Positions 6,056 through 64,000 of a DNA stretch of 64,000 bases are shown piece by piece. Made by a program: the position numbers and the translations under genes. The stretch's first letter is position 1, and every line of letters begins with the position of its first letter. The notes beneath the pieces were generated by a model. It ran no database searches, had not been told where the DNA came from, and was given only the letters and a program-made list of their open reading frames with translations. Origin of the DNA: a virus (lineage: Duplodnaviria > Caudoviricetes); the IMG/VR virus record IMGVR_UViG_3300031853_000003, positions 1-64,000 of that record; one strand, given 5' to 3'.

Positions 6056-6078
6056 TTGAATATGAAGGAGTATTGTCC

Positions 6079-9794: not shown

Positions 9795-12700
9795 ATGGCT
9801 CAGAATGCAGACTATCAGAAGCTAAATTGGCAAGATTTGCCCTCTGAAGTAACGCCGCTTAGCGCAGCTAATCTGAACCGTATGGAAGACGGCATCGAAG
9901 CAGGCGCTAATTTCAGATTGCCTGGTAAACTCTTTGATTCGTCTGAAGATCTGGACGAATATCTTGAGATATCGTCAGATGGTAGCGCAGCCGGTCAAAC
10001 AGTTACTGTCAAGGAAGGCAACAAGTATAAACAGTACATATTGAATTATGACAGCGCCACAGGTACTTATCAGAAAAAGTCCTCTGGTGCTGGTGTTTAT
10101 GTCGGTGAAACTCTTCCGGACATCGCAACTGCAGACCCTGATCTCGATTATTACATTGGGACTGATGCTACTTCATACGTCCATTGGCGCGTAATCGGTA
10201 CAGCGTTCCAAACCGTCGGTGGAGATTCATACTCCAAAGATGATATGGACGATATGCTTGGACTGATTCGCTCATCAATCGGCGCAAGCAACGAAGAGAT
10301 ACAGTCTATCAAGAATCGTCTTACTGCTGTTGAAGCTCGCAAAGGTTTCTTCTACACATTCACCTACGGAACAGAAGAAATCGGCGGTGAAGAGAAGAAG
10401 AATGTCTTCTCCTTCTGGAGATTCAACAATGAAGCAGATATGGATGATCCTTCTAAGGGTACGCTTGTTAAGCGAGCGATCATTGAAGGTGGCGGAGGTA
10501 GCGGATCATCGTCTAACCTTAAGTTGACGAAAGTTACACCGTCCCCGCTCATCATTACACCTACTGATAAGACAGAGATCACTGTTAACTATCAGTCAGA
10601 AGACAGTTCAGGATCTCCTGTAGACGGTAAGTATACTATCAAACAAGTCGAACCTTATTCAAGAACAGTCATGACTGGTGATCTTGTACAAGGTGATAAC
10701 ACGTTTGATCTAACAGAGTTCAGCAGCGTAGGCACCAACAGATTCTCAATTCAGGTTGAAGATGATAACGGTGCAACCGGCTCTGTTTCCTACAATGTAC
10801 GAATTGTAGATGTCAGAATTGAGTCTGATTATGATGACAGCGGATATACAGCTATCGGTAGACGAGTTGATTTCGGCTATACTCCGTATGGTCTTATCAG
10901 CAAGACTGTCCATTTCTCACTTGACGGCGTTGAGGATACTATACAGCTTGAATCTGCTGGTACTCCTCAGATCTATCAGATTGATCCTCAGCCATATGGT
11001 CATCATATGCTTGAGGTCTGGATCACTGCAGAAGTCAGCGGTAAGCACATCGAGACCGCTCATATCTACAAGGATCTTGTATGGTATGAAGATGATCCAG
11101 AACAGCCACCTATCGTCAAGACGAGTTATCGGTATGACTACAGAGGAACTGTAGACGTCAATCAATATGATGTAGTACCGATTGATCTAAGTGTATTTGA
11201 TCCTCTCACAAAGACGCCTGAAGTTGTATTCAACGTAGACGGCGTTGAAGTCGATCGTAAGACACTATCTACTAGCTCGTCTATCTGGAGATACAAGGCC
11301 TCTACTACAGGTCTACACGAACTGTCAATCAGCTGCAGAGGTGTAACTGTTCCTATCAAGATAAACACCAATGCGCTTACAATTGACGTATCTCCTATAA
11401 TCACAGGACTTGAGGTAGACTTCAATCCAGAAGGTCTCACAAACGATTCAGATAACCGTCTGTGGACAAACGGAAACTACTCAATGTCAGTGTCCGAGAA
11501 TTTTGACTGGGCCAACGGTGGTTACAAAACTGATGAAGAAGGTAATGCTTACTTCTGCATCAAAGCCGGTACACGCGCATCATTTAACTACTACATGTTC
11601 CCAAGTAGTGCAGATGAAAGTCCTTCGGCAGTTGGCGCAGAGATGAAGCTTATCTTCCGTACTGAAAATGTACAGAATGCTGAGGCTACTTGGTTCACTA
11701 ACGTAGAGACTTCTCAGGTAGGTCAACGTACTATACAAAAAGGTATTCAGCTCAATGTTCACAACGGCTGGCTGAAGACCAATACCGCTAGCGACGAAGA
11801 TGTTATTGAAGGCGATGAAAGTATCGCAGCCACTAACACATATCTGTACCTCCCATATTCCGAAGAAGACAGAATTGAGCTTGACATCAACGTAGACGTT
11901 ATCGGCAACAGAGAGAAGGCATTCGTTCTTTCGTATGAGGACGGTGTCCCGCTGAAGTCGTTCGTCTTTGGTCAGTCAGACCAGTTCTATCAAGGAACTC
12001 CTAAGCCAATTGTTATAGGTTCAGATGATTGCGATGTCAGAATCTATCGCATGAAGTTATACTCTACTGCACTTTCATCAGAAAGCGTAATGAGGAACTT
12101 CATAGCAGATGCTCCTGATTCTTCTGAGATGGTCAACAGATACAATCGTAACAGTATCTATTACAACAGCGAGACCGGCAAGTATACTCCGTATCAGGTA
12201 GCCGGCGGCGGTAAGCTAGATCCTATCAAACTTGCAGAGAAGTGCAAAGACCTCAGAGTACTTATGCTTGAGTGTCCGACATTTACTACTAGTAAGAAGG
12301 ACTTCATCAAGAACAGTAATCTTCGCTGTATCTACAAGAACGGTGATCCTTATTGGGACAACTGGTACTTCGAGAACGGTTATCATGCTGGTCAGGGTAC
12401 CACTTCTGATAAGTACGGTGTAGCTGGACGAAATGTTGACTTCCTGTTTAACGTAGATGGTGTACATCATCCGTCAGATAAGATCACAACTGTAGATCCG
12501 AACTACATCTCAGCTGTAACATTTGGATACGGTACAGACGCGGCGCACAAATATACAACTGTTGATGCAAATGACATCAATGATCCAGCTCGTGTGACCC
12601 TGACACGTACCAGTATTCCAAACAACTTCTTTAACTTCAAGGTAAACATTGCGTCATCTGAGAATGCTAACAACGCACTTCTCCAGAAACGCTACAATGA

Positions 12701-15700
12701 TTTCCTCCCGTATATCTCTCCTGCAAAGATCAGAGATTCTCGTATCAAGAACGATATGGAGTTTGTTCCTGCTGTTCTATTCATTCGTGAGATGAGCACA
12801 TCTGATGCACATAGTGAGTTCTCAGATACTGAGTGGCACTTCTACGCAATCGGTAACTTAGGTGACTCTAAGAAGACCGACTACACACGTGCTTATGATC
12901 CGTCCGACATGAATGAGTTCACCATCGAGATTTCTGATAACACGATGAACAACTCGACATTCCAGACAGGCGTATACCTGGATGGTCAAGGTAACAGAGT
13001 AGTTGAGTCTATCTCAGATACAGCTATTCACGAGTACGTGTATCCAATCACAGCGAATGAGTGGAACCCGAACAACAAACGCTATTATACATTATATAAT
13101 GAGAAGTTTGATGGCGACCATTCATTTGAACCTCGTTACGCTTGTTGCGGTGACTACCGAGACGGTAAGATAGTCAATGATACTCACGGACCTGGTGAGG
13201 ACGCAGCACAGCTGTTGAAGAACGAAGGTGTCTGGAGAGCTTTCTATCGTTGGGTTATCACTTCGACGGACGAAGAGTTCATCAATCAATATGAAGAGTG
13301 GTGCGTCAAGTCAGCAATGACTTTCTTCTACGCATATACACATCATCATACATTGATGGATAACCGTGCAAAGAATACATTCTGGCACTTCGCTAAGACT
13401 GGTGTATTCCGCGCGATGTCTAAGCCAGTAGCTGAGCTACTTCACGTCTACTGTGAGCTTGTGAACGGCGAATATGTTCCGACGACTGATACAACTATCA
13501 ACCCGAATAAGACGTATTACAGTCAATACGCGATCGACATTTGGGTATATGATACAGATACAGGTCTTGGCATTAACAACAATGGTGAGCTTGTATTCCC
13601 GTTCGGTAAAGAGGATACAGACTACGTCGTTGATGGTATGCCTAATTCCGGCTACGTATTCAACGGTGCATTATCAACATTCTGGTGCAGAACTCGTGAT
13701 AATCTGTATGATGACATCGATGCTACTTACCAGAACGTGGATAAGCGTTGTTGGCAAGATGACAGCCTTATCAATGAGTTTGATCTCTGGCAGGCTACCT
13801 ATCCTGAGGAGCTGTGGAGACTCGATATCGTCAGAAAGTATATTCGTTCTTTCAACGGTACTGCTGTCGACAACAGTATCCCGAAGAAAGACGAGCTGTT
13901 CCTGAGAGATATGATGCAAGGCCGCAAGAAGTATCAGCGTAGGGAGTGGATCCGTAATCAGCACATCTACTTCGGCACAAAGCACATCTCAACCGAGATC
14001 AAAGATGCTGACAACATGATTTACTTCCGTGTTGTAACTCCTGTAGGTACGCTTGCAGTTGAGCCGAATTACGACATTGCTGTTGTACCTTACAGCGATA
14101 TGTATATCTCCGTTCAGTATGGTACTAGTGACCCGTCACCTGAGGAGAGACTTCGTGCTAAGGCAAATACTTATCATGTAGTTGAGGAACCTGAGCAGAA
14201 ATGGCTGTCCCTTTACTACGAACTCGTAAGTGGGGAGTACGTCAAGACAACTGACGTAGCTGTAAATCCTGCTAAGACATACTATTCGATGGCATACGTT
14301 GTCAAGTCGAGAGTATCTTTTGCAACTGAGACGCAGATATCTATCTACGGTGCAACAAAGATTCGTGAGTTGAGTGACTTGTCCGCTTGTTATATCCGTT
14401 CCAACTCCTTTGAGGCTGCTGTCAAGCTGAAGAAGCTGGTGCTCGGTAATACAACACCTGGATACACAAATCCCCAGCTTACAGGTCTTAGCATCGGCAG
14501 CAATAAGATGCTTGAGGAACTTGATATTCGTAACTGTACTGCACTCCAAGGTGTGTTGAACCTTTCAAGTTACGTAGGTCTCAAGAAGTTGTATGCAGAA
14601 GGCACTAAGATTTCAGGTGTCGTCTTCGCTGAGAACGGTAAGGTAGATCTAGCACATCTGCCTGATAACTACTTGATGTCATTGGTCATGAAGAATCTTA
14701 ACAGTCTGGATTCTGAAGGATTTGACTGTTCCTTAGATACTCTTACAGACTTGACACTTCAAGGCGGATTGCTCGATGCAAAGTCAATCGTATCTGACAC
14801 GAAAGACACATTGACTACATTGAAGCTGTATCATATCAACTGGACACTTGCAAATCAAGATTTACTTGATGATATCTACGCTCTCGCGTCTAGTGAGGTT
14901 ACAGGATATGTTTACTTGCCTGAGATTCGCAGACGTGATCTAGCGAAGTTCAATCGCAAGTGGCCAAGTTTGACAATCGACGCAACGTCAATCTATGAGG
15001 AGTATCCTGTATACTTCCTCAACTACGATGGTACACCTGTTAGAGATACAACCGGTGACCCATATGTTGAGTGGGTAGAGATCGGTCAGTATGCTCATGA
15101 CCCGATTGTAGGTGGTCAAGTACTTACTCCTACCAAACCTCAAACAGCTAAGCACACTTACACTTATGACCACTGGTCAGTATATGCTGGCGGTGTTGTA
15201 TCTAGTGAGGTATATCAGTTCAACGAGGTTATTCTTGGACCTGTTACTCTCATGGCAGTGTATACAGAAGCACTTAGGACGTTCAAGGTCAGGTGCTGGA
15301 CATCTGATGTCAACATTGCTACAATGCAACAAGGCATCTGGAATTCTAGTTTGAACCCTGTAAGGACACAGCTTGGTCAGGATATAGATGTTGAATATGG
15401 TTCATATGTCGATCTGACAGCACTCATGTCCACCTTCCAGACTCGCAAGTGTGTACCTCATCTAACAGGTAACACTCCCTACTATGAAGCATACAACTTC
15501 ATTGACTGGGATAAGTCCGCAGGTTACGTCACGGAGGACATGGACATCTTCGCCATCTGGAGATATGCTAAGGTCTTCCAGAACGTAGATGGTACGCTTA
15601 GAATCCGTACGGAAGATAACCTGAGAGCTAAGTACTTACACGAGCTGACTTCTGCTGAGCTGCAAGTAGTTGCTGCTATTCGTGATAACAACGGTAGCTG

Positions 15701-17468
15701 TAAGTTCGCAGAGATGTTTGACAACAGAGATTATGTTGCATGGACAATGGGCTATGACCCGAATTTCAGCAATGTAGAATCTGATACAATCGTATCGCTC
15801 GAGGACGGCCCGGTATTCTTCGAAGGATTATCTGCTTTCATGCCGACGGATGAGAACGATGACCCATACGTCTTGTTTGCTGCAGACAGCCCATCATTCA
15901 CAATGGCCATCGATTATCGCTATACTGCTAACGCGAATGGATCGCTGCCTGCTGGGTCTGATACTCAGAGGACCTTGTTCTCTTGTTTCGAGAGACCTGA
16001 CGACGGAAATTACGGTTTCAGAGTTCGCTATCTGAATAGCAAGATGTCTCTCATGTGGGGCGATAAGAACCAGAATATCGCCAATCAGACTAACAGAGAT
16101 ATGCTTGTCATTCGACATCAGCAGGGTAGCAATAAGCTCTACATCTACACATTCATCGGAGATACAAGCCAGGCGAACGGATACACTGATGCAGGACAGG
16201 TCATTGAGCTTACTCGTAACAATGATCAGTATCCTGCTACCAATGCTCCGCTTGTATTCGGTGGTATTGCAGAATATGATTCGTCTACTGGTAAGTATAA
16301 GGTAACTACTGATTCTACCTACTTCGGTTCTGGTGCAATTCATTGGTGTAAAGTTTGGTACGATGATCTTGGCGAATCCGTTGCGAAGAAGATCGCCGGT
16401 TGGACACGCGATGAGATGCGCATGGAGAACTACGAGTTGCAGCTGGATACAGCTAATACTCTAATCGGTGCTCCGTATAAGCTCGATAGAACTGTTCATA
16501 CCAGTGCACCTGCAAACTCGTTTGCGTCTGCGTCATTTGTGTCAAATGCTCAGCTGAGATATACACACAGGATGAACTCAGATAACGTCAACACAGGCGG
16601 CTGGGGCGGTAACCCTGCAACAGGTAAGTATGAATACTCAATGCACTATTTCATGAACCACAGATGGGTTCCCGGTGTGCCTAATGAGTATGCTTGCTTG
16701 TTCGCAACAGTGCTTGTCAAGTCAACGTCAGGCGGCGGTGGATCTACCATTGCAGCATATTCCAGCGTAGGCTATATTCCTTGTAGAAAGGAAGAAGACG
16801 GTACTAACGATAGCGGTTATACTTCCGAGATGGATTCATATGTTGGTAAGATTCCTTGGAACAACTCTAACAACGCAACAAGACTCAAGTTCAGAGATGT
16901 ATTCCTCAATCCGCCACACTTTGATCCTCTACCTACAGAGCCAAGTGCTTGGTCTACAAATTGGGCTAAGTATTACGTCTGGGATGAAGCAACTTCATCT
17001 TATAAGACATTACAGAATGCTGGATATAGTAGTGCTCCTGAGTTTGTTGCAAATACATTCTTCGAGTTCAGCGGTTCAATTACACTTACAGGTGTAGCTG
17101 TTCATACAGGCGCAAGCGAGCCGATCTTCGGTCAGAGTAAAGGCCTATATGATTATGATACTAACCCGACAGGTGTACGAGAATTCGATATCTGGCAGAA
17201 TGGTAATAATCAAGGATTTATCTTCGTCACTGCCGAAACAGCCAAAGAACGTGGCTTAACACTAAGTACAGAGGTATCACAAGGTACCACAGTAATTGGT
17301 GGTTGGGTTGGCGCCGACTATTATTGGCTTCGTTCGCCGTATGTGGGCGGCACCAACAATTTCTGGTATGTCAACCACGGCGGCGCCGTCAACAACAACA
17401 ACGCTGGCAACTGGAACGGGGTGTGCCCTTGCGTATCTCTTTATGCGGAGCTCCAGGATGAGTCGTAA
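9795..17468 (+). CDS. Giant tail fibre/adhesin-like protein, DGR target (Ig-like, LamG-like, CotH-kinase-like, LRR, C-terminal C-type-lectin-fold variable domain)
   Basis: 2557 aa; DNRAKN and YDTDTGLG; LRRs such as LEELDIRNC and LKKLYAEGT; C-terminal YYWLRSP...GVCP containing the VR. Confidence 0.8.
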   Translation: MAQNADYQKLNWQDLPSEVTPLSAANLNRMEDGIEAGANFRLPGKLFDSSEDLDEYLEISSDGSAAGQTVTVKEGNKYKQYILNYDSATGTYQKKSSGAGVYVGETLPDIATADPDLDYYIGTDATSYVHWRVIGTAFQTVGGDSYSKDDMDDMLGLIRSSIGASNEEIQSIKNRLTAVEARKGFFYTFTYGTEEIGGEEKKNVFSFWRFNNEADMDDPSKGTLVKRAIIEGGGGSGSSSNLKLTKVTPSPLIITPTDKTEITVNYQSEDSSGSPVDGKYTIKQVEPYSRTVMTGDLVQGDNTFDLTEFSSVGTNRFSIQVEDDNGATGSVSYNVRIVDVRIESDYDDSGYTAIGRRVDFGYTPYGLISKTVHFSLDGVEDTIQLESAGTPQIYQIDPQPYGHHMLEVWITAEVSGKHIETAHIYKDLVWYEDDPEQPPIVKTSYRYDYRGTVDVNQYDVVPIDLSVFDPLTKTPEVVFNVDGVEVDRKTLSTSSSIWRYKASTTGLHELSISCRGVTVPIKINTNALTIDVSPIITGLEVDFNPEGLTNDSDNRLWTNGNYSMSVSENFDWANGGYKTDEEGNAYFCIKAGTRASFNYYMFPSSADESPSAVGAEMKLIFRTENVQNAEATWFTNVETSQVGQRTIQKGIQLNVHNGWLKTNTASDEDVIEGDESIAATNTYLYLPYSEEDRIELDINVDVIGNREKAFVLSYEDGVPLKSFVFGQSDQFYQGTPKPIVIGSDDCDVRIYRMKLYSTALSSESVMRNFIADAPDSSEMVNRYNRNSIYYNSETGKYTPYQVAGGGKLDPIKLAEKCKDLRVLMLECPTFTTSKKDFIKNSNLRCIYKNGDPYWDNWYFENGYHAGQGTTSDKYGVAGRNVDFLFNVDGVHHPSDKITTVDPNYISAVTFGYGTDAAHKYTTVDANDINDPARVTLTRTSIPNNFFNFKVNIASSENANNALLQKRYNDFLPYISPAKIRDSRIKNDMEFVPAVLFIREMSTSDAHSEFSDTEWHFYAIGNLGDSKKTDYTRAYDPSDMNEFTIEISDNTMNNSTFQTGVYLDGQGNRVVESISDTAIHEYVYPITANEWNPNNKRYYTLYNEKFDGDHSFEPRYACCGDYRDGKIVNDTHGPGEDAAQLLKNEGVWRAFYRWVITSTDEEFINQYEEWCVKSAMTFFYAYTHHHTLMDNRAKNTFWHFAKTGVFRAMSKPVAELLHVYCELVNGEYVPTTDTTINPNKTYYSQYAIDIWVYDTDTGLGINNNGELVFPFGKEDTDYVVDGMPNSGYVFNGALSTFWCRTRDNLYDDIDATYQNVDKRCWQDDSLINEFDLWQATYPEELWRLDIVRKYIRSFNGTAVDNSIPKKDELFLRDMMQGRKKYQRREWIRNQHIYFGTKHISTEIKDADNMIYFRVVTPVGTLAVEPNYDIAVVPYSDMYISVQYGTSDPSPEERLRAKANTYHVVEEPEQKWLSLYYELVSGEYVKTTDVAVNPAKTYYSMAYVVKSRVSFATETQISIYGATKIRELSDLSACYIRSNSFEAAVKLKKLVLGNTTPGYTNPQLTGLSIGSNKMLEELDIRNCTALQGVLNLSSYVGLKKLYAEGTKISGVVFAENGKVDLAHLPDNYLMSLVMKNLNSLDSEGFDCSLDTLTDLTLQGGLLDAKSIVSDTKDTLTTLKLYHINWTLANQDLLDDIYALASSEVTGYVYLPEIRRRDLAKFNRKWPSLTIDATSIYEEYPVYFLNYDGTPVRDTTGDPYVEWVEIGQYAHDPIVGGQVLTPTKPQTAKHTYTYDHWSVYAGGVVSSEVYQFNEVILGPVTLMAVYTEALRTFKVRCWTSDVNIATMQQGIWNSSLNPVRTQLGQDIDVEYGSYVDLTALMSTFQTRKCVPHLTGNTPYYEAYNFIDWDKSAGYVTEDMDIFAIWRYAKVFQNVDGTLRIRTEDNLRAKYLHELTSAELQVVAAIRDNNGSCKFAEMFDNRDYVAWTMGYDPNFSNVESDTIVSLEDGPVFFEGLSAFMPTDENDDPYVLFAADSPSFTMAIDYRYTANANGSLPAGSDTQRTLFSCFERPDDGNYGFRVRYLNSKMSLMWGDKNQNIANQTNRDMLVIRHQQGSNKLYIYTFIGDTSQANGYTDAGQVIELTRNNDQYPATNAPLVFGGIAEYDSSTGKYKVTTDSTYFGSGAIHWCKVWYDDLGESVAKKIAGWTRDEMRMENYELQLDTANTLIGAPYKLDRTVHTSAPANSFASASFVSNAQLRYTHRMNSDNVNTGGWGGNPATGKYEYSMHYFMNHRWVPGVPNEYACLFATVLVKSTSGGGGSTIAAYSSVGYIPCRKEEDGTNDSGYTSEMDSYVGKIPWNNSNNATRLKFRDVFLNPPHFDPLPTEPSAWSTNWAKYYVWDEATSSYKTLQNAGYSSAPEFVANTFFEFSGSITLTGVAVHTGASEPIFGQSKGLYDYDTNPTGVREFDIWQNGNNQGFIFVTAETAKERGLTLSTEVSQGTTVIGGWVGADYYWLRSPYVGGTNNFWYVNHGGAVNNNNAGNWNGVCPCVSLYAELQDES
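17312..17432 (+). repeat. DGR variable repeat (VR)
   Basis: Ungapped 121-nt match to 18379-18499 with 13 mismatches, all opposite TR adenines. Confidence 0.97.
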
Positions 17469-17473
17469 GACGA

Positions 17474-17517
17474 GTCCTGCTCGATCTGGTGGCAACTTGC
17501 TTGCCACGGAGCAGGAC
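17474..17517 (+). promoter_or_regulatory. DGR target-recognition hairpin downstream of VR/IMH
   Basis: GTCCTGCTC/GAGCAGGAC outer stem and GTGGCAA/TTGCCAC inner stem just after the target stop. Confidence 0.75.
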
Positions 17518-17548
17518 GAGTGGTTATCAATTTGGAGGTGTATGTTAG

Positions 17549-18352
17549 TTGTCTGTAATGGTCAAAGATCGTCATCTGGCCAAAAGTCAATTTGAAACTA
17601 CATTTGAGAAATTCTATCTTGATACCACTCGAATACTTCATGGAACATCGAAGCGCAGACAGTCTTCGATATGTGAGGACTTGACGTATCTGATCAACAC
17701 GATGTATGATCATATCATGATCATCAGTGAACACAGATTCGCCAAGTCCTCCCGGGCTCGGAAATTGCGTCATGATAACGTAATCGCAGCACTTCAGATG
17801 ATTCCTCAACTGGAGAAGTATACAATGGTGTATTCCAACGTCACCTGTAAACCATTTGCTAAACAGTGTAACTGGGTGTCGACACTCAACGTAGAGGTGA
17901 AGCTGTTGAACGGATTGTTAGATAATGAATCTGAGAAGATAGAATATATCGTAGGAGTCCTAGATTGGGAGAAGATGAAGTCCTTCAAGGTCCTATCAAA
18001 CATGTCCTATCTGCATAGATTCGTACACGGCAAAACAGTCAGAGCAAAGGGTACTCTCCAGAACGGAGCATCACCTCATCTGCAATCATTAGTAGATGAC
18101 GCATTCTATTCAATAATGCACGCAAACAAATATATCCCGCGGACAGCAGAGCAACGTGACGATAGACTCAAAGAGTTATCTCATGCCTTAGATTGTCTGC
18201 GGGAGATGGAACGACATACATTGTCGTTCTTCAACATAATGGGATACAGTGATGCGGTTCAGAAAGACTGGACTGACGCACTTGTCCTAGAACTTCGACT
18301 ATTAAGTGGATTGATTGAGTCGGATAAGACCCGATTCAAAAATCTTATATAA
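17549..18352 (+). CDS. avd: DGR accessory variability determinant, tandem two-domain form
   Basis: Between VR and TR; helical; two halves each ending W..[TA]L..E..LL.GL. Confidence 0.75.
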   Translation: MSVMVKDRHLAKSQFETTFEKFYLDTTRILHGTSKRRQSSICEDLTYLINTMYDHIMIISEHRFAKSSRARKLRHDNVIAALQMIPQLEKYTMVYSNVTCKPFAKQCNWVSTLNVEVKLLNGLLDNESEKIEYIVGVLDWEKMKSFKVLSNMSYLHRFVHGKTVRAKGTLQNGASPHLQSLVDDAFYSIMHANKYIPRTAEQRDDRLKELSHALDCLREMERHTLSFFNIMGYSDAVQKDWTDALVLELRLLSGLIESDKTRFKNLI

Positions 18353-18359
18353 TAGTATC

Positions 18360-18600
18360 AGGTTACAGGCTACACCATCGCCGACAATTATTGGCTTCGT
18401 TCGCCGAATGTGGGCAACACCAACAATTTCTGGAATGTCAACAACAACGGCAACGTCAACAACAACAACGCTAACAACTGGAACGGGGTGTGCCCTTGAT
18501 TTCCGTAATACAGTAGCTATGAATAAGAGTGAAGATGGTCTGCTTAGACGGACCTATTACGGAAAGGAGCCTATAACCTTCTACAGGAATTGTCTGTAGC
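18360..18600 (+). ncRNA. DGR template RNA scaffold (TR plus paired flanks)
   Basis: 18360-18371 pairs with 18568-18579; 18501-18510 pairs with 18555-18564. Confidence 0.6.
18379..18499 (+). repeat. DGR template repeat (TR)
   Basis: AAC/AAT-rich copy of the VR lying between avd and RT. Confidence 0.97.
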
Positions 18601-18809
18601 AAATTATACGTCTCGATGATGTAATCGAGGCCTGTTATGAAATGCAGATTCATATCTGCGAACAGTCCGTGCTTGACGGGTGGACGCTTCTTGCATGGAT
18701 GTGAAAGATCACATATTCACATTTTCATACCCAGTCAGCTACTAGTCCGCAACAAGTGATCAACAATTAGGGCTAGGCGGAGGAACATCTAACGAGCCAG
18801 GAGTCATAG

Positions 18810-20117
18810 ATGAATAATCGAGATAGAATTCAGGCACGAATAGAGCGAGATAAACGGCGAAGGGCGGAGAAGAAAGCTAAGTTTGCAGCTGAATATGATT
18901 GTGTTGACAAGATCATCACACATCAACATGTAACTACGTGTTTCTTCAGGTGCAAGTGCGGAGTAATGTGGAAAGGTAAACCGCAAGTATACGCACAGCA
19001 CGGAGTATCCAACAATGATGCTATTGTACAAGGATACAAAGATGGTTCTTTGCCGAAAGTCAAGTACGTACTTGATATGCTTCACTACGAACGTGGTAAG
19101 GCTCGTGAAATAACGCCAATACAGTTCGATGATAGAATTGGACAAAGAGTATGGAATGATTACTCTTTCACTCCAATGATACAGCGAACTATCATCTATG
19201 ACAACGGAGCAAGCACTCCTGAGAAAGGAGTTCAACTTGCACGTAACCGCATGGAATTGTTTCTTCGGCGAGCAATCCGGCGGTGGGGAGAGAATTTCTA
19301 CATACTCACATTTGATTTCAAGAATTTCTTCAACAGTATTCCCCATTTGACCTGTTACAACGTACTTTCAAAGTTGTATACAAATCAATACATCATAGAT
19401 ACGCTCATGCGTATTGTCAAAGCGTATCATAAAGCAAAGATCGAGCAGTTATCTGACAGAGCTGAACGCGAAATGATGCTTGAAAAGCTCGAACGCAATG
19501 AATTGCATGGTATAACTCTCGGCAGTCATGTGTCGCAGAATTTCGCACTACTTGTACCAAGTCGTATGGATCATTATTTCAAAGACGAATGTGGAATGGA
19601 GTTTTACGAAAGATACATGGATGACGGAGATATACTATGTGATTCTAAAGAGCGGCTTCAGCAGATATACGAAGGCGCAAAGAAGATATGCACTGAACTA
19701 GGTCTAGAATTCAATGCACTGAAAACCAAGATAGTCAAAGCTACTAAAGGCTTCAGTTTCTTGAAGGTCAAGTATAAAGTAGTCGGAAAGAAGCTTATCA
19801 AGCGACTTGTAAGGTCTGGCATAGTACGAATGAGAAGAAAACTTCACAAGTTTGTACGACTTGTCAAAGAGGGTCGCATGACAAAATTAGATGTATACAA
19901 CTCAATCCAAGCGTGGGTTGCACACTCTAAGATAGCTCAGGCCTACAAGACAGTCAAGCGAATGATGAAGCTTTATAATAAATTGTTTGATGGATACTTG
20001 ATGACTAAGAAGTATCTAAAACACATCGCACCAGTAGGAGGTAGTCGACGTGAGATATTACAAATTGATAAATGGTCAACTTATCATTGGAATTGGGACG
20101 ACCGGCTCGCTGCGTAA
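18810..20117 (+). CDS. DGR reverse transcriptase
   Basis: FDFKNFFNSIPH, GITLGSHVSQ, RYMDDG, KGFSFL; directly follows the TR. Confidence 0.95.
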   Translation: MNNRDRIQARIERDKRRRAEKKAKFAAEYDCVDKIITHQHVTTCFFRCKCGVMWKGKPQVYAQHGVSNNDAIVQGYKDGSLPKVKYVLDMLHYERGKAREITPIQFDDRIGQRVWNDYSFTPMIQRTIIYDNGASTPEKGVQLARNRMELFLRRAIRRWGENFYILTFDFKNFFNSIPHLTCYNVLSKLYTNQYIIDTLMRIVKAYHKAKIEQLSDRAEREMMLEKLERNELHGITLGSHVSQNFALLVPSRMDHYFKDECGMEFYERYMDDGDILCDSKERLQQIYEGAKKICTELGLEFNALKTKIVKATKGFSFLKVKYKVVGKKLIKRLVRSGIVRMRRKLHKFVRLVKEGRMTKLDVYNSIQAWVAHSKIAQAYKTVKRMMKLYNKLFDGYLMTKKYLKHIAPVGGSRREILQIDKWSTYHWNWDDRLAA

Positions 20118-22675: not shown

Positions 22676-22700
22676 ACCATCTTACAACGAAAACAGAACC
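22629..22700 (+). repeat. Degenerate direct repeat, copy 1 (copy 2 at 23673-23737)
   Basis: TTGATGCACT...AAGCGAACGA.GAATAA...TCTTACA shared by both copies. Confidence 0.75.
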
Positions 22701-22825
22701 TGACACGCCTCTCAAAGAAGCGTACCACGTCAGGCCATATAAGAAACATCTCCGCTAGGTACAGATTACTTAGCGGAGATGTTTGCGCAGCAAGGAAAAT
22801 CAAATTTGTTAAGGAGATTTGAGCT

Positions 22826-41235: not shown

Positions 41236-41787
41236 ATGAAATCAACTGGTCTTGTTAGACGTATTGACGATCTTGGACGTGTCGTTATCCCGAAGGAGAT
41301 TCGTCGTCCGCTTCATATCCACGAAGGAGATCCATTTGAGATATACCTGGATGGTGACGGCGGAATCGTGTTCAAGAAGTATTCAGGTCTGACCTACATC
41401 GAGGATCTGATTCAGGCCTGTGCAGTATCATTGAGTCGGTCAAAGGGCTACGAGGTCCTCATCTGTGACACAGATCATATCAAAGCTGTGGAAGGCGTAA
41501 GCAAACGTCAGTTCCTAGGATGCAGAATTTCGTCGGATGTCGAAGTCGTCCTCCGTAGCTATAAGCCGTATGTAAGATGCTCGACGTCTCCTCTGGTTAA
41601 AGCTGTTGACGGAGAGCAGAGATCTGCTGATATTGTCCATCCTATCATTTCTAAGGGAGAGGTCATCGGCGCCATTATCATTCTCTGCAAAGACGAGCCT
41701 AGTAGCGAGAATAAGCCGTCTCCTGAGATGGTGAGTGACGTCCAGCTTGCAGCTTCTATGCTCGGTTACATGAACAGCATGGACTGA
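41236..41787 (+). CDS. spoVT: Stage V sporulation protein T homolog (AbrB-type N-domain plus GAF-like C-domain)
   Basis: MKSTGLVRRIDDLGRVVIPKEIRR.L.I.EGDP.EI..KKYS; ICDTD.I.AV.G; PIISKGEVIGAII; 183 aa. Confidence 0.85.
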   Translation: MKSTGLVRRIDDLGRVVIPKEIRRPLHIHEGDPFEIYLDGDGGIVFKKYSGLTYIEDLIQACAVSLSRSKGYEVLICDTDHIKAVEGVSKRQFLGCRISSDVEVVLRSYKPYVRCSTSPLVKAVDGEQRSADIVHPIISKGEVIGAIIILCKDEPSSENKPSPEMVSDVQLAASMLGYMNSMD

Positions 41788-60432: not shown

Positions 60433-62367
60433 ATGGATAACAACAGAGGTATGATAAATTACACTGATCGAGATTACGAGAGCATCATGAAAGACTTCTG
60501 GGCTCTTGTACCTGCGTTGACAGAGCTCTGGAAGCCGGAGGCGGTTGAGCGTTTGGACAAGGAGGACGTTGACCTCTGGAAGCCAGAAGCTGATGCAGAT
60601 CCGGGTGTTGTTCTCGGCAAGTGGCTTGCAAGTGTAGCGAATATGCTCGGAGTCAATGTAGATTGGCTTGCCAATGAGATATTTGCTCCGTCAGTATCTC
60701 AGCGTAAGAATGCTGAGAAGATATTCGGACTCATCGGATATGAACTTGGGTGGTACACTGCCGCAAGGACAGAAGTAACATTCACAAATAGCTCGGATTC
60801 AGATATCTCATTCAACTTAGGATTCAACGGAGCAAACTTCGCAACGCTGAATGCTTACACTGACATAGCTGATAACTCTCGTGTTATTACATATAATATA
60901 TTGCCGTCTACAAACACATACGGAGCAACAGAAAGCCGCAGTCGAAGAACTGTTGCAACATCTAATCTTGATGTTTTCACTAACACCGACAAAGTATATC
61001 TGAAACCTGGTGAGAGTGTAACACGTGTTGCTATTGAAGGCGAATTGAGAAGCTATACACTTTCCGTGAAAGATATCATCGCTAACAATTACATCATTCG
61101 ACTTCCTTCTCAGCATATCGACACAACTGCCATATGGGTGAAAGCTAAAGCGTCAAGAGGTAGCACGCAGTTCCTCAAGACGCAATGGATCCAATGTAGC
61201 AGCGCAGCTGAATTCGTTCAACCCGAGCCGAGATTCGCTGTCACATATGATTCATACTCTAACGCACAGATTCAGATAAGCAACTACCTCAATCAGCTAG
61301 AAGATTACAGCGATAACTACTTGACAATCTTCTGGATTGATTGCTCAGGTATTATCGGCTGTGTTGGCCAGAATGTATTGCAGAACTTCTTACCAGCTAT
61401 TGGAGATGCTCCTGATGAAGAGTCTGGAATTCTCACAGTGTCCAATCTGTCAAACACAGTCGAGCTTCCGAACACCTATACAGTAACAGGTAGAAGTCCT
61501 GAGACTGCAAAGGAAGCGTATTACAACAGTCGTAACTACATCAACACATTTGACAGTTTAGTGACCCTGCCGGATTTCAACAGATTCTTGAATAGAGAAG
61601 CTGGTGTCGATTGCGGACTTGTTATCGACTGCCAGAAGGCGCTTGAGATCAACATGGCCATCTACAACGACAAGTCTCTCACAGATAGCCAGAAGTCAAA
61701 GATGTATATCACCAACTACGACTTCCCGGCAGGCGAGCCTATACATGATTGGAAATCCGTATTGAATCTAGGATTTGATCCAGAAGATCCAAACAACTTT
61801 GTGTTCGCAGCCAACTTCCATACATACACAGCGATGTGTTTCGCAATTCACAATGATTTCAAAAACAGCTCGTTCGGCAACGGTAGCATAGCTCATGCAC
61901 AAGTAGAAGATGGTGTGAAGTTCCAGAGATACAAACCTCCGGTACAATTCATTGAGAACGTGAAGAGAGATTATCGTCCTTTACAGGCGATGTCAGTCGA
62001 ACTCGAATTCGGCTATCTGAGAATCTTCCCTTGGTATGTAGTAGGTCAGATCTATCCGAAGAAACCTGTATCCTCTGACGTAGCTGCAAATCTTGTAGCG
62101 AAGGTCAAGGAAGCACTCGCAATGTATTTCGCTCCTGCAAACAGACGTATTGGGCAGAAGCCTACTGTGATGGAAGTCGTTGATGTTGTCAGAAAGTGCG
62201 ACAGCAACATAGATTACTTCGATGCAGGCAGCTTGAAAAACAATGTCATCACATGGAAGAATTGTGATCCAGAGTACTTCAATCCCATTTCATTCTGTAA
62301 GTATTCCGACCTAGGTTCAGACGCAAATAATATTCGTATTGCACCGGAATACATTATAGATAATTAA
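60433..62367 (+). CDS. Baseplate wedge protein gp6/gpJ-like
   Basis: NYTDRDYESI, ADPGVVL, LIGY, G..PET, LVTLPDF. Confidence 0.8.
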   Translation: MDNNRGMINYTDRDYESIMKDFWALVPALTELWKPEAVERLDKEDVDLWKPEADADPGVVLGKWLASVANMLGVNVDWLANEIFAPSVSQRKNAEKIFGLIGYELGWYTAARTEVTFTNSSDSDISFNLGFNGANFATLNAYTDIADNSRVITYNILPSTNTYGATESRSRRTVATSNLDVFTNTDKVYLKPGESVTRVAIEGELRSYTLSVKDIIANNYIIRLPSQHIDTTAIWVKAKASRGSTQFLKTQWIQCSSAAEFVQPEPRFAVTYDSYSNAQIQISNYLNQLEDYSDNYLTIFWIDCSGIIGCVGQNVLQNFLPAIGDAPDEESGILTVSNLSNTVELPNTYTVTGRSPETAKEAYYNSRNYINTFDSLVTLPDFNRFLNREAGVDCGLVIDCQKALEINMAIYNDKSLTDSQKSKMYITNYDFPAGEPIHDWKSVLNLGFDPEDPNNFVFAANFHTYTAMCFAIHNDFKNSSFGNGSIAHAQVEDGVKFQRYKPPVQFIENVKRDYRPLQAMSVELEFGYLRIFPWYVVGQIYPKKPVSSDVAANLVAKVKEALAMYFAPANRRIGQKPTVMEVVDVVRKCDSNIDYFDAGSLKNNVITWKNCDPEYFNPISFCKYSDLGSDANNIRIAPEYIIDN

Positions 62368-62376
62368 AATCCTGAT

Positions 62377-62382
62377 TCGTTA
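62377..62382 (+). promoter_or_regulatory. TCGTTA motif in front of the ncRNA candidate
   Basis: Ends 8 nt before the first stem of the structured region. Confidence 0.55.
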
Positions 62383-62390
62383 TATAGTAC

Positions 62391-62826
62391 ATAACACCGC
62401 CGCCGAAGAGACGCCGGCCATCATCCTCCGCTCGTTGCCATCGCGGAGGCCTTCTTTCAGCTGGCAGTAGGTCGCGGATAGTAACATACTGTCAAACAGT
62501 TCTTTGTATTCTTCGTAGCCTGAGAATATTGTGTTACACGCCGGGCGTGATCGTTGCCCCGCATCAAATTACCGCGAAGACGTTGCGGCGGTGTTATTAC
62601 GCAAATTAACTGCCAGCATTTGGCCAGATCAGGCCTCCTAGAGAGCTGGTGAATCTGCTAGAGAGATTTTGCAAGTGGAGACAAATGTCGTAGAAGCGGC
62701 TCAATGAACCTAGCGGACAGGCAGATTACATCGGTGCAGTTGCTGCCATACTTTAACAACTACCTCATTGGTTCTCTGAAAATAATAGGCGAACAGCGTC
62801 TGGGCAACTGCTCAGGCGCTGTTTGT
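62391..62826 (+). ncRNA. Large structured non-coding RNA candidate of unidentified class
   Basis: Non-coding GC-richer 500-nt gap with many complementary segments, its own promoter motif and a terminal hairpin. Confidence 0.65.
62792..62826 (+). terminator. 14-bp terminal hairpin with G-U pairs
   Basis: AACAGCGTCTGGGC-aact-GCTCAGGCGCTGTT. Confidence 0.7.
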
Positions 62827-62832
62827 TATAGC

Positions 62833-62842
62833 ACCTTTAATA
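62833..62842 (+). promoter_or_regulatory. ACCTTNNATA motif
   Basis: ACCTTTAATA immediately after the ncRNA, upstream of the next baseplate gene. Confidence 0.65.
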
Positions 62843-62872
62843 ACATTAAACACTATGTATGGAGGTAACTGA

Positions 62873-64000
62873 ATGAAGTTTTCTGATATTTCGGTTCCTG
62901 AGATATACAAGTCAAGCGCAGATTTCAGATTCTTCCTAAGGTGGTTCTCTGAATCTCTGCATCGAATAAAGTACGATACAGAGAATATGTTTGATTTGTA
63001 TGATCCGCTACGCTGTCCGTCTAAACTACTCTGGATGCTTGCAGATAGTATGGGCTTCAAGTATGATGACCGGTTGTCAACAGCCTTCAATCGACTTGTA
63101 CTTGTCTACTTCATGTCGATGATTCGCAACAAGGGTAGCAAGGACGGTGTGACGCTTGCAGCTGAGATCAATCTTGCACAGTTCAAACTACAGCAGCTTT
63201 CGTCTGAGTATTCCACTGACAGTGAGTTCGACAACGACAAAGAAGATTGGATGCAAGATAGCTATCATGACGATATCTTAGATGATCGTCTTGAGGATAC
63301 GTCTATCCCTGTAAATTCTGTATACGTCACCCCTCATACATCAAAAGGATACATCGAAGTAGTTTACTTCGCTGATAGAGTCCCTACAGACGCGTGTATA
63401 GAATACGTCAGACCGCTTGGAATGTATATGTTCCAGTACGCAGGTGTAAGATACGACTCCAGAACAAAGATATCTATCGATGCTCGACTGACAAATGAAA
63501 GAGATGTAGGCGTATCCATCGGACCTACTCATGTCGGACACTACAGACGTGACGATTATGCACGTATGCAGAGACTCAATGAAGGTACAGAGCCGAATAC
63601 ATTGAGAGCAAGAGCTGTAAACAGAAATGATGTGTACGATCCTACTAACTACAGAGGACACGTCAAGACTCCTAATGCGCCTTATGGTAAGACAGCATTG
63701 TCGAATGATCCACGTCATCCTGTGTATTATAGAAATTCTCAGATTGAGGGTCAGCCTAACGACTATGTCAATCCAGGATACCGAGCTCTCTATTCATTGC
63801 AGTTGTGTAACAACGAGCATATCATCAAATCACTCATTCCAAAGATATTCAGTATCGGCTATGGTCCGCAAGACGTTGAAGTCTCAACGTATTATCCTGA
63901 TAACTATCTCGATGTTCCTGACCAGCCGCCGTACAACTTAAGATACCATCGTGACGCAGAGATGTCAATCACACCGAACGAAACTGGTGTAGCTGATGCA
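62873..64000 (+). CDS. Baseplate/tail protein, P2 gpI/gp7-like (3' partial; absent from the ORF track)
   Basis: GGAGGT RBS; MKFSDISVPEIY...LYDPLRCPSKLLWMLADSMGF...RNKGSKDG; appears to run off the window end. Confidence 0.75.
   Translation, partial: MKFSDISVPEIYKSSADFRFFLRWFSESLHRIKYDTENMFDLYDPLRCPSKLLWMLADSMGFKYDDRLSTAFNRLVLVYFMSMIRNKGSKDGVTLAAEINLAQFKLQQLSSEYSTDSEFDNDKEDWMQDSYHDDILDDRLEDTSIPVNSVYVTPHTSKGYIEVVYFADRVPTDACIEYVRPLGMYMFQYAGVRYDSRTKISIDARLTNERDVGVSIGPTHVGHYRRDDYARMQRLNEGTEPNTLRARAVNRNDVYDPTNYRGHVKTPNAPYGKTALSNDPRHPVYYRNSQIEGQPNDYVNPGYRALYSLQLCNNEHIIKSLIPKIFSIGYGPQDVEVSTYYPDNYLDVPDQPPYNLRYHRDAEMSITPNETGVADA

What the first reader, a model, noticed from the sequence alone, without database searches (positions are those of the whole stretch)
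62377..62842. ~430-nt structured RNA with mutually exclusive folds inserted between two baseplate genes
Seen: the gpJ-like and gpI-like genes are split by a 505-nt non-coding gap. The gap has a TCGTTA motif at its start, a terminal 14-bp hairpin whose G-U pairs indicate + strand RNA, and a new ACCTTTAATA after it. A perfect 13-bp helix joins 62391-62403 with 62585-62597. Nested helices include TCGCGG 62472-77/CCGCGA 62572-77, GTAACATA/TGTGTTAC, TATTCT/AGAATA, CACGC/GCGTG, and a 3' AATCTGC/GCAGATT. Segment 62445-62468 has two options. It can fold locally (CCTCCGC 62425-31/GCGGAGG 62443-49; GCCGGC 62413-18/GCTGGC 62460-65), or pair long-range (GGAGGCCT 62445-52/AGGCCTCC 62631-38; GCTGGCAGT 62460-68/ACTGCCAGC 62609-17), crossing the 13-bp helix. 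Inference: an independently transcribed large phage ncRNA with pseudoknots or a two-state switch. I cannot assign it to a known class; ROOL, GOLLD and raiA-type RNAs are the obvious comparisons.
Basis: partly seen in the sequence, partly recalled or inferred. Interest (0 to 1): 0.85.

Follow-up and report, generated by a model that had tools for sequence, protein, structure and literature searches.

The report
Orphan non-coding RNA cassette in phage baseplate
A 505-base stretch inserted between two baseplate genes of an uncultured 155-kb phage looks like a self-contained unit (own promoter, about 440 bases of foldable non-coding sequence, terminator, restart promoter), but it has no relative anywhere, so whether the RNA does anything cannot yet be shown.

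Summary
The gap is the largest ORF-free stretch of this 155,391-bp phage.

It is an insertion. In 36 of 62 related phages the upstream gene's stop abuts the downstream gene's ribosome site. Twenty others carry unrelated protein-coding cargo at the same junction.

TCGTTAW has 31 of 50 copies intergenic; CCTT[GTA][TA]ATA has 19 of 27. The layout is therefore promoter, about 400 nt, terminator-like hairpin, second promoter, next gene.

Nothing supports coding: no ORF, no protein homologue, and off-frame-like codon usage in all six frames. ATG is depleted on the + strand.

Folding is better than shuffles (z -3.3, and + strand-specific in the 3' half). Genome-wide it ranks only in the top 2-3%.

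There is no Rfam hit, so it is not ROOL, GOLLD or raiA. No homologue turned up in any collection, so covariation cannot be tested. The "two-state" pairing is energetically competitive but not clearly above chance.

Most likely it is a moron-like cassette whose cargo is a structured non-coding RNA of unknown function. A functionless remnant remains a serious rival.

The parts
60433..62367 (+). Upstream baseplate gene (644 aa), called gpJ-like from its position after a gp25/W-like gene. It has no Pfam match of its own.
   Evidence: 62 relatives at 59-71% identity
62375..62384 (+). P1 promoter-like motif ATTCGTTATA (consensus aaTCGTTAWa).
   Evidence: 50 TCGTTAW sites in the genome. 31 lie in the ~7% that is non-coding, almost all in sense orientation, most 20-85 nt before a start codon. 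The same motif with its flanks precedes a gene in a related phage.
62390..62829 (+). Putative non-coding transcript, about 440 nt. The ends are inferred from P1 and the terminator, not measured.
   Evidence: No ORF or homologue. Codon score is off-frame-like in all six frames. ATG is depleted on +.
62387..62600 (+). 5' domain: a multi-branch fold closed by a 3+13-bp helix (62387-62403/62585-62600). Hairpin A is 62413-62465 and hairpin B is 62472-62577. GC is 53%, against 43% for the genome.
   Evidence: MFE -78.4 kcal/mol, z -3.27, 0 of 200 shuffles as stable. Helix probabilities 0.94-0.99. Helix list.
62445..62468 (+). 5' arm of the alternative long-range (pseudoknot) pairing. It overlaps the 3' strands of hairpin A.
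   Evidence: duplex -32.9 kcal/mol with 62609-62638; weak significance
62609..62638 (+). 3' arm of the alternative long-range pairing. It lies outside the 13-bp helix.
62639..62778 (+). 3' domain closed by a 14-bp helix with G-U pairs (62639-62652/62765-62778).
   Evidence: region 62603-62835 has z -2.48 on + and -0.27 on -
62788..62829 (+). Terminator-like hairpin: 18 bp with 5 G-U pairs and a GC-rich core (62794-62805/62810-62821). U-rich tail TTTGTTAT at 62822-62829.
   Evidence: The consensus terminator scan did not list it. Analogous hairpins end the inserts of relatives L002, L010 and L062.
62833..62842 (+). P2 promoter-like motif ACCTTTAATA (consensus ACCTTwTATA), 39 nt before the next gene.
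   Evidence: 19 of 27 genome sites are intergenic, nearly all in sense orientation 19-85 nt before starts. CCTTGTATA-type motifs occupy the same place in relatives.
62873..64000 (+). Downstream baseplate gene, Tail_P2_I family. It runs past the window end, to 64135 in the genome.
   Evidence: PF09684, 23.6 bits, cut-off 20.6

Best explanation
The 505 nt are a moron-like accessory cassette inserted at a recombination hotspot between two baseplate genes. The cargo is an RNA rather than a protein.

Proposed steps:
1. Transcription starts a few bases after the P1 motif (TCGTTATA, 62377-62384). This step is inferred.
2. It runs through about 400 nt that fold into a 5' multi-branch domain, closed by a 16-bp helix, and a 3' domain closed by a 14-bp G-U-containing helix.
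3. It stops at the hairpin and U-tract at 62788-62829. This step is inferred.
4. The P2 motif at 62833-62842 then restarts transcription for the downstream baseplate gene. This step is inferred.

The product, about 440 nt, would act in trans as a structured RNA, most plausibly as a protein-binding decoy or scaffold during infection. That function is speculation.

Shown here: the insertion status, the absence of coding signal, the two motif classes, and fold stability above shuffles.
For: Insertion:
- In 36 of 62 relatives the J-like stop abuts the ribosome site and start of the I-like gene.
- 20 relatives carry unrelated inserts of 156-2723 nt, filled with + strand ORFs in all but the 156-nt one.

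Cassette architecture:
- P1 and P2 are strongly enriched in sense-oriented intergenic positions.
- Relatives L010 and L034 also have TCGTTAT right after the J stop.
- In L010 that motif is followed by an SSB-domain ORF, a terminator hairpin and a CCTTGTAT-type motif.
- Other P1-driven units here are accessory genes and tRNA-Pro.

Non-coding:
- No ORF above 54 aa.
- HMMER of the best minus frame against 1.84 billion proteins found only a translated CRISPR array.
- The 54-aa ORF and a TAG-readthrough frame have no homologues.
- All six frames score -0.33 to -0.69. Real in-frame windows score 0.275 +/- 0.10.
- ATG occurs 2 times where 6.95 are expected, and not at all in the first 300 nt, P 0.007.

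Structure:
- z -3.28, -3.27 and -2.48 on +.
- The 3' half is strand-specific.
- The 13-bp helix has P 0.001.

Context:
- It is the largest ORF-free stretch in a genome that is 93% coding.
- Long non-coding RNAs with their own promoters are documented in the large lytic myophage K (PMC9241854).
Against: - No homologue in IMG/VR, JGI metagenome contigs, GTDB genome contigs, INPHARED phages, PLSDB or 27 related phage genomes. There is therefore no covariation or conservation evidence at all.
- No expression data.
- The GC-corrected fold stability ranks only 23rd-42nd of 1411 genome windows.
- The 5' domain folds equally well on the minus strand.
- A promoter and terminator would also flank a decayed protein-coding moron.
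- The consensus terminator scan did not call the hairpin.
Confidence: 0.5

Rival explanations
1. Functionless remnant. A moron cassette lost or never had a working gene, for example a truncated piece of foreign, GC-richer DNA or a heavily decayed ORF. It kept its promoter and terminator. Any RNA made from it is a by-product, and the helices are partly chance and partly a consequence of high GC.
For: - The sequence is an orphan in every collection searched.
- Nearly all other inserts at this junction are protein-coding.
- GC-corrected stability is not extreme.
- The long-range alternative pairing is within reach of shuffles.
- The 5' domain is 53% GC, against 43% for the genome.
Against: - No residual protein similarity in any frame tested.
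- No frame has a coding-like codon score.
- ATG is depleted on the transcribed strand only, with 2 ATG against 10 CAT.
- The 3' domain folds in a + strand-specific way.
- A 13-bp perfect helix has P 0.001.
- A densely packed phage genome rarely keeps 450 nt of junk.
Confidence: 0.3
2. Cis-acting leader or insulator for the downstream baseplate gene. P1 drives a long structured 5' leader, and its alternative folds decide whether the hairpin at 62788-62829 terminates (attenuation). Alternatively, the unit simply uncouples the transcription of the two baseplate genes.
For: - The layout is promoter, structured leader, terminator, gene.
- Several 7-8-nt segments are complementary to the terminator arms, for example 62736-62743 with 62804-62811.
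- Relative L002 has only a terminator plus a P2-like motif at this junction. A terminator plus restart therefore occurs as a module without other cargo.
Against: - A P2 motif sits between the terminator and the gene, so the gene does not depend on read-through.
- In most relatives the two genes are directly coupled with no regulation.
- No riboswitch, T-box or leader family matches.
- 400 nt is far more than an attenuator needs.
Confidence: 0.1
3. DNA-level element. The 207-bp segment 62391-62597 has 13-bp terminal inverted repeats and TAC on both flanks. It could be a miniature transposable element, or the region could be a replication or recombination site.
For: Perfect 13-bp terminal inverted repeats with TAC on both sides. 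The junction is a recombination hotspot.
Against: - It is single-copy in the genome.
- A scan for the paired repeat arms in IMG/VR gave only chance hits in high-GC phages.
- No related copy turned up in genome or metagenome contigs.
- The flanking TAC is equally read as an extension of the helix (GUA/UAC).
- There is no GC-skew inflection, and no iterons.
Confidence: 0.05

Closest known systems
Morons of tailed phages (promoter, gene, terminator units inserted between conserved genes; concept from lambdoid phage comparisons, from my own knowledge)
   Same: It is inserted between two genes that are adjacent and coupled in relatives. It has its own promoter motif and terminator-like hairpin. Its composition differs from the flanks. 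Different relatives carry different cargo at the same junction.
   Different: The cargo has no ORF and no coding signal. Classical morons encode proteins.
Long non-coding RNAs lnc001 and lnc002 of Staphylococcus phage K (PMC9241854)
   Same: They are large non-coding transcripts of unknown function in a large lytic myophage with terminal repeats. lnc001 has its own promoter.
   Different: Those lie next to tRNA genes and are 635 and 1154 nt long. No phage record in INPHARED shares sequence with this stretch. This one lies in the baseplate module, 35 kb from the nearest tRNA.
ROOL, GOLLD and raiA large ornate RNAs (Rfam RF03087, RF01998, RF03072; cryo-EM assemblies in bioRxiv 10.1101/2024.12.08.627333)
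   Same: ROOL and GOLLD are multi-helix non-coding RNAs several hundred nucleotides long that phages or prophages often carry. This candidate comes from a phage whose relatives were sampled in gut or rumen-type metagenomes.
   Different: There is no covariance-model match at E <= 1. It is not adjacent to tRNA genes. No family of homologues exists to compare.
Transcription-attenuation leaders (riboswitches, T-box)
   Same: A promoter is followed by a structured RNA with competing helices, then a terminator hairpin before a gene.
   Different: There is no family match. A separate promoter motif follows the terminator. It is much longer than such leaders.

Membership tests
ROOL RNA (RF03087) | Match to the family covariance model | tested here: not met
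   cmscan of 61500-64000, both strands, E <= 1: 0 matches. Whole window at gathering scores: only RT-2 and abiF, elsewhere in the window.
GOLLD RNA (RF01998) | Match to the family covariance model | tested here: not met
ROOL/GOLLD | Usual location beside tRNA genes in phage or prophage DNA | tested here: not met
   The phage's tRNAs and tmRNA lie at 97.5-103.6 kb. This stretch is at 62.4 kb.
raiA RNA (RF03072) | Match to the family covariance model | tested here: not met
Group I or II self-splicing intron | Covariance-model match, and interruption of one continuous ORF | tested here: not met
   No Rfam match. In relatives without an insert, the flanking genes are two separate ORFs with a stop, a ribosome site and a start.
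Retron ncRNA (msr-msd) | Reverse transcriptase gene adjacent to an ncRNA whose ends pair | tested here: not met
   The only RT (18810-20117) belongs to a DGR with VR/TR repeats and an RT-2 RNA motif. It lies 42 kb away.
Moron cassette | Inserted between genes that are adjacent in related phages | tested here: met
   36 of 62 relatives have a 0-41 nt junction.
Moron cassette | Own promoter and terminator | tested here: met
   Sequence level only. P1 motif class has 31 of 50 sites intergenic. Hairpin plus U-tract at 62788-62829. No transcript data.
Moron cassette | Protein-coding cargo | tested here: not met
Riboswitch / T-box leader | Family model match; terminator directly controls the downstream ORF | tested here: not met
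   No match. A P2 promoter motif lies between the terminator and the ORF.
Miniature inverted-repeat transposable element | Multiple copies with the same terminal repeats | tested here: not met
   Single copy in the genome. No related copies elsewhere.
Structured ncRNA (generic criterion) | Compensatory base changes among homologues | not testable with these tools
   No homologue was found in any collection, so no alignment could be built.

The most novel reading that the evidence does not exclude
This is the first seen member of a new class of roughly 440-nt structured phage RNAs, carried as a mobile accessory 'RNA moron'. Its core would switch between, or combine as a pseudoknot, a local hairpin (62413-62465) and a 23-bp long-range helix (62445-62468/62609-62638). 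It would act in trans on a host or phage protein, for example as an anti-defence decoy.
Probability: 0.15. Interest if true: 0.65.

Novelty: new member of a known kind. Interest (0 to 1): 0.38.

Why it matters
Accessory cassettes at phage insertion hotspots are where counter-defence and host-takeover functions tend to sit, and almost all known cargo is protein. A cassette whose cargo is a large structured RNA would extend that idea. It would also add to the few long non-coding RNAs known from large lytic phages.

The two compact promoter motifs recovered here (aaTCGTTAWa and ACCTTwTATA) are useful by-products. They give a transcription map for a whole group of uncultured phages of about 150 kb.

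As it stands the RNA is a single orphan sequence from a metagenome, with no host and no relatives. Its value is that of a well-delimited candidate.

Tried and rejected
**Homologue searches, all negative**
- blastn (word size 11) against INPHARED phages and PLSDB plasmids.
- An IMG/VR scan for the paired arms of the 13-bp helix gave 9 hits, all chance matches in 59-68% GC phages.
- Degenerate-pattern scans used stop-free pseudo-translations of the 5' and 3' domains and of the minus frame. They covered IMG/VR, JGI metagenome contigs and GTDB genome contigs. The single hit, L076, is a coding region matched by chance.
- BLAST in 27 related phage genomes gave only a 24-nt match, which turned out to be the shared promoter motif.
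- A covariance model built from the single 5' domain sequence was searched in 21 relatives. It gave only a 12-bit hit inside an ORF.
- These pattern scans mainly detect relatives of about 90% identity or more.

**Coding hypotheses rejected**
- Minus-frame 62 aa.
- 54-aa ORF 62704-62868.
- TAG=Q and TGA=W readings.
- tblastx against all inserts of relatives.
- Codon-usage score.

**Other readings rejected**
- Retron link: the RT belongs to a DGR.
- Replication origin: no GC-skew inflection.
- The second orphan non-coding stretch of the genome (102837-103284) shares no sequence with this one.

**Technical failures**
- A first genome-wide fold scan timed out and was rerun at a coarser step.
- A whole-half duplexfold test was uninformative and was replaced by a windowed test.

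Full report
**Setting**

The window is the first 64 kb of a 155,391-bp IMG/VR phage record with direct terminal repeats. It is 43% GC, about 93% coding, and almost all genes are on the + strand.

The finding lies between a 644-aa ORF (60433-62367) and a Tail_P2_I-family ORF that starts at 62873. The 644-aa ORF has no Pfam match. It follows a gp25/W-like gene, so "gpJ-like" is a label from gene order only.

Yes. The 505-nt gap has no ORF above 54 aa. By a crude ORF map it is the largest ORF-free stretch of the whole genome.

The 13-bp perfect helix 62391-62403/62585-62597 extends by GUA/UAC and closes a multi-branch 5' domain. In the Boltzmann ensemble it and the main inner helices have probabilities of 0.94-0.99.

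The terminal hairpin has two G-U pairs in its 15-nt arms. In the MFE fold it has five G-U pairs in 18 bp. It therefore forms only on the + strand.

**Is it more than chance?**

Measured against its own shuffles, yes:
- A perfect inverted repeat of 13 bp or more appears in 0.1% of simulated 505-nt sequences.
- The MFE z-score is -3.28 for the gap and -3.27 for the 5' domain.
- For the 3' domain it is -2.48 on +, against -0.27 on -.

The signal should not be overstated:
- Against all 220-nt windows of this genome, corrected for GC, the three windows covering the region rank 23rd to 42nd of 1411.
- The 5' domain folds equally well on either strand.
- The genome holds nine other perfect helices of 13 bp or more.

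**It is an insertion at a hotspot**

I retrieved 62 related phage loci with the upstream protein at 59-71% identity.
- In 36 of them the stop of that gene is followed within 0-41 nt by the ribosome site and start of the downstream gene.
- In 20 the junction holds inserts of 156-2723 nt.
- In three more the downstream gene is not found within 4 kb.
- In the last three the contig ends before the junction.

Apart from one 156-nt gap, the inserts are filled with + strand ORFs and are mostly unrelated to one another. Their products include SSB-domain proteins, a DUF7487 protein and a crAss001_48-like protein. None resembles the window's insert by blastn or tblastx. The window is thus unusual in having a long insert with no gene.

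**The two small motifs are the phage's promoter classes**

TCGTTA-containing 7-mers are the most enriched words upstream of genes. Of 50 TCGTTAW sites, 31 lie in the ~7% of the genome that is non-coding. Almost all are in sense orientation, and most sit 20-85 nt before a start codon. The consensus is aaTCGTTAWa. In several cases the ribosome site follows within 12-16 nt, so the start of transcription must lie a few bases after the motif.

The copy at 62377 sits 10 nt after the upstream stop codon and 496 nt before the next ORF. The same motif with its flanks precedes a gene in a related phage. Relatives L010 and L034 have it directly after the J-like stop, ahead of their ORF cargo.

Of 27 sites, 19 are intergenic, nearly all in sense orientation and 19-85 nt before starts. 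Here it lies 39 nt before the downstream gene. CCTTGTATA-type versions occupy the same place, after a terminator hairpin, in relatives L002, L010, L043, L045 and L062.

P1 also drives a homing endonuclease, an antitoxin-like accessory gene and tRNA-Pro. P2 precedes structural genes.

The architecture is therefore P1, about 400 nt, hairpin with U-tract (62788-62829), P2, ribosome site, gene. That is a moron layout. All of this is sequence inference. The consensus terminator scan did not list the hairpin either. The likely reason is that the stem, as drawn, runs into the U-tract.

**Is it coding after all?**

Nothing says so.
- The best minus-strand frame (62 aa) was searched with HMMER against 1.84 billion representative proteins. 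It hit only one "protein" at E 4.7e-4, and that is the translation of a CRISPR array.
- The 54-aa ORF and a TAG-readthrough frame found nothing.
- The phage carries no suppressor tRNA.
- With a codon log-odds model trained on the phage's own genes, all six frames score -0.33 to -0.69. Real 400-nt in-frame windows score 0.275 +/- 0.10, and none is as low as these.
- ATG is depleted on the + strand: 2 where 6.95 are expected (P 0.027), and none in the first 300 nt (P 0.007). The minus strand has 10.

**Known RNA classes**

Rfam 15 gives no match at E <= 1 on either strand, so this is not ROOL, GOLLD, raiA, OLE, a riboswitch or an intron. It is 35 kb from the phage's tRNA and tmRNA cluster.

A retron reading fails. 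The phage's only reverse transcriptase belongs to a DGR at 9.8-20.1 kb.

A transposable-element reading of the 207-bp segment with 13-bp terminal repeats fails for lack of any other copy.

**Homologues**

None were found. I searched IMG/VR, JGI metagenome contigs, GTDB genome contigs, INPHARED, PLSDB, 27 related phage genomes by BLAST and 21 by a single-sequence covariance model.

The closest available relatives share only about 70% protein identity in a conserved structural gene. Accessory DNA would not be expected to be shared at that distance. Orphan status is therefore weak evidence against function, but it removes any chance of a covariation test.

**Alternative folds**

The long-range pairing 62445-62468/62609-62638 forms a 23-bp interrupted duplex of -32.9 kcal/mol. 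Adding it to a fold that keeps the 13-bp helix gives -164.9 kcal/mol before any pseudoknot penalty. The nested MFE is -156.7. Forcing it without the 13-bp helix costs 4.7 kcal/mol.

A pseudoknot or a two-state equilibrium is thus energetically plausible. However, dinucleotide shuffles reach a comparable inter-domain duplex in 20 of 259 trials. I treat it as a hypothesis, not a finding.

**Verdict**

| Reading | Probability |
|---|---|
| Moron-like cassette whose cargo is a structured non-coding RNA of about 440 nt, acting in trans; function unknown, decoy or scaffold is my guess | 0.5 |
| Functionless remnant that kept its promoter and terminator | 0.3 |
| Cis-acting leader or insulator | 0.1 |
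| DNA-level element | 0.05 |

Long non-coding RNAs with their own promoters are already documented in large lytic myophages (phage K, PMC9241854). The kind is therefore known, while the sequence family would be new. Interest is moderate: the candidate is well delimited, but it is a single orphan from an uncultured phage.

**Earlier notes of this scan**

Another first-stage note covers this same stretch, read in an overlapping window (e1-5752104). A further note flags a second orphan non-coding stretch after tRNA-Pro (e1-5752115). I checked that stretch for Rfam matches and for similarity to this one and found neither.

Noticed in passing
window 9795-20117: A complete diversity-generating retroelement. 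The 2557-aa target ORF (9795-17468) carries the variable repeat at 17312-17431. The template repeat is at 18379-18498 (90% identical, 120 nt). An RT-2 RNA motif lies at 18607-18801 (43 bits). The reverse transcriptase ORF is 18810-20117 (RVT_1, E 5.7e-16).
   Followed up: partly
whole genome; in the window e.g. 6050, 9319, 21257, 35981, 41195 (P1) and 3632, 9731, 24587, 43403, 48352 (P2): Two compact promoter-like motif classes, aaTCGTTAWa and ACCTTwTATA, are each strongly confined to sense-oriented intergenic positions before genes. P1 precedes accessory genes and a tRNA; P2 precedes structural genes. They probably mark two temporal classes.
   Followed up: yes
L086:6338-6785 (genome 102837-103284): A second orphan non-coding stretch of 448 nt lies directly after tRNA-Pro, downstream of a P1 motif. 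It has no Rfam match and no sequence similarity to the stretch studied here.
   Followed up: partly
L086:968-1390 (genome 97467-97889) and genome 98072-103619: The phage encodes a tmRNA (Rfam 72.4 bits) and six tRNAs: Gln, Met, Leu, Glu, Pro and Ser.
   Followed up: partly
window 22699-22784: An abiF RNA motif scores just above its gathering score (37.6 against 37 bits) at 22699-22735. It is followed by a hairpin with a 13-bp perfect stem at 22744-22784.
   Followed up: no
related loci L002-L063, junction after the J-like gene: The junction between the two baseplate genes is an insertion hotspot across this phage group. Cargo includes SSB-domain proteins (L010, L062), a DUF7487 protein (L060), a crAss001_48-like protein (L022) and many small ORFs of unknown family.
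   Followed up: partly
window 6073-8085 and 41236-41784: Two P1-driven accessory genes. One is a 671-aa homing/HNH endonuclease. The other is a 183-aa protein with an antitoxin-like N-terminus (phrog_4681) and sits inside the structural module.
   Followed up: no
genome 126604-126834 (outside the window): The most stable 220-nt + strand window of the genome after GC correction (z -4.08) lies in a 231-nt intergenic gap. It contains a 13-bp perfect helix, 126628-126780.
   Followed up: no
protein P0001 (public library): A 358-aa 'protein' in the representative library is a translated CRISPR array, with the repeat read in three frames. It gave the only, spurious, hit to the minus-frame query.
   Followed up: yes
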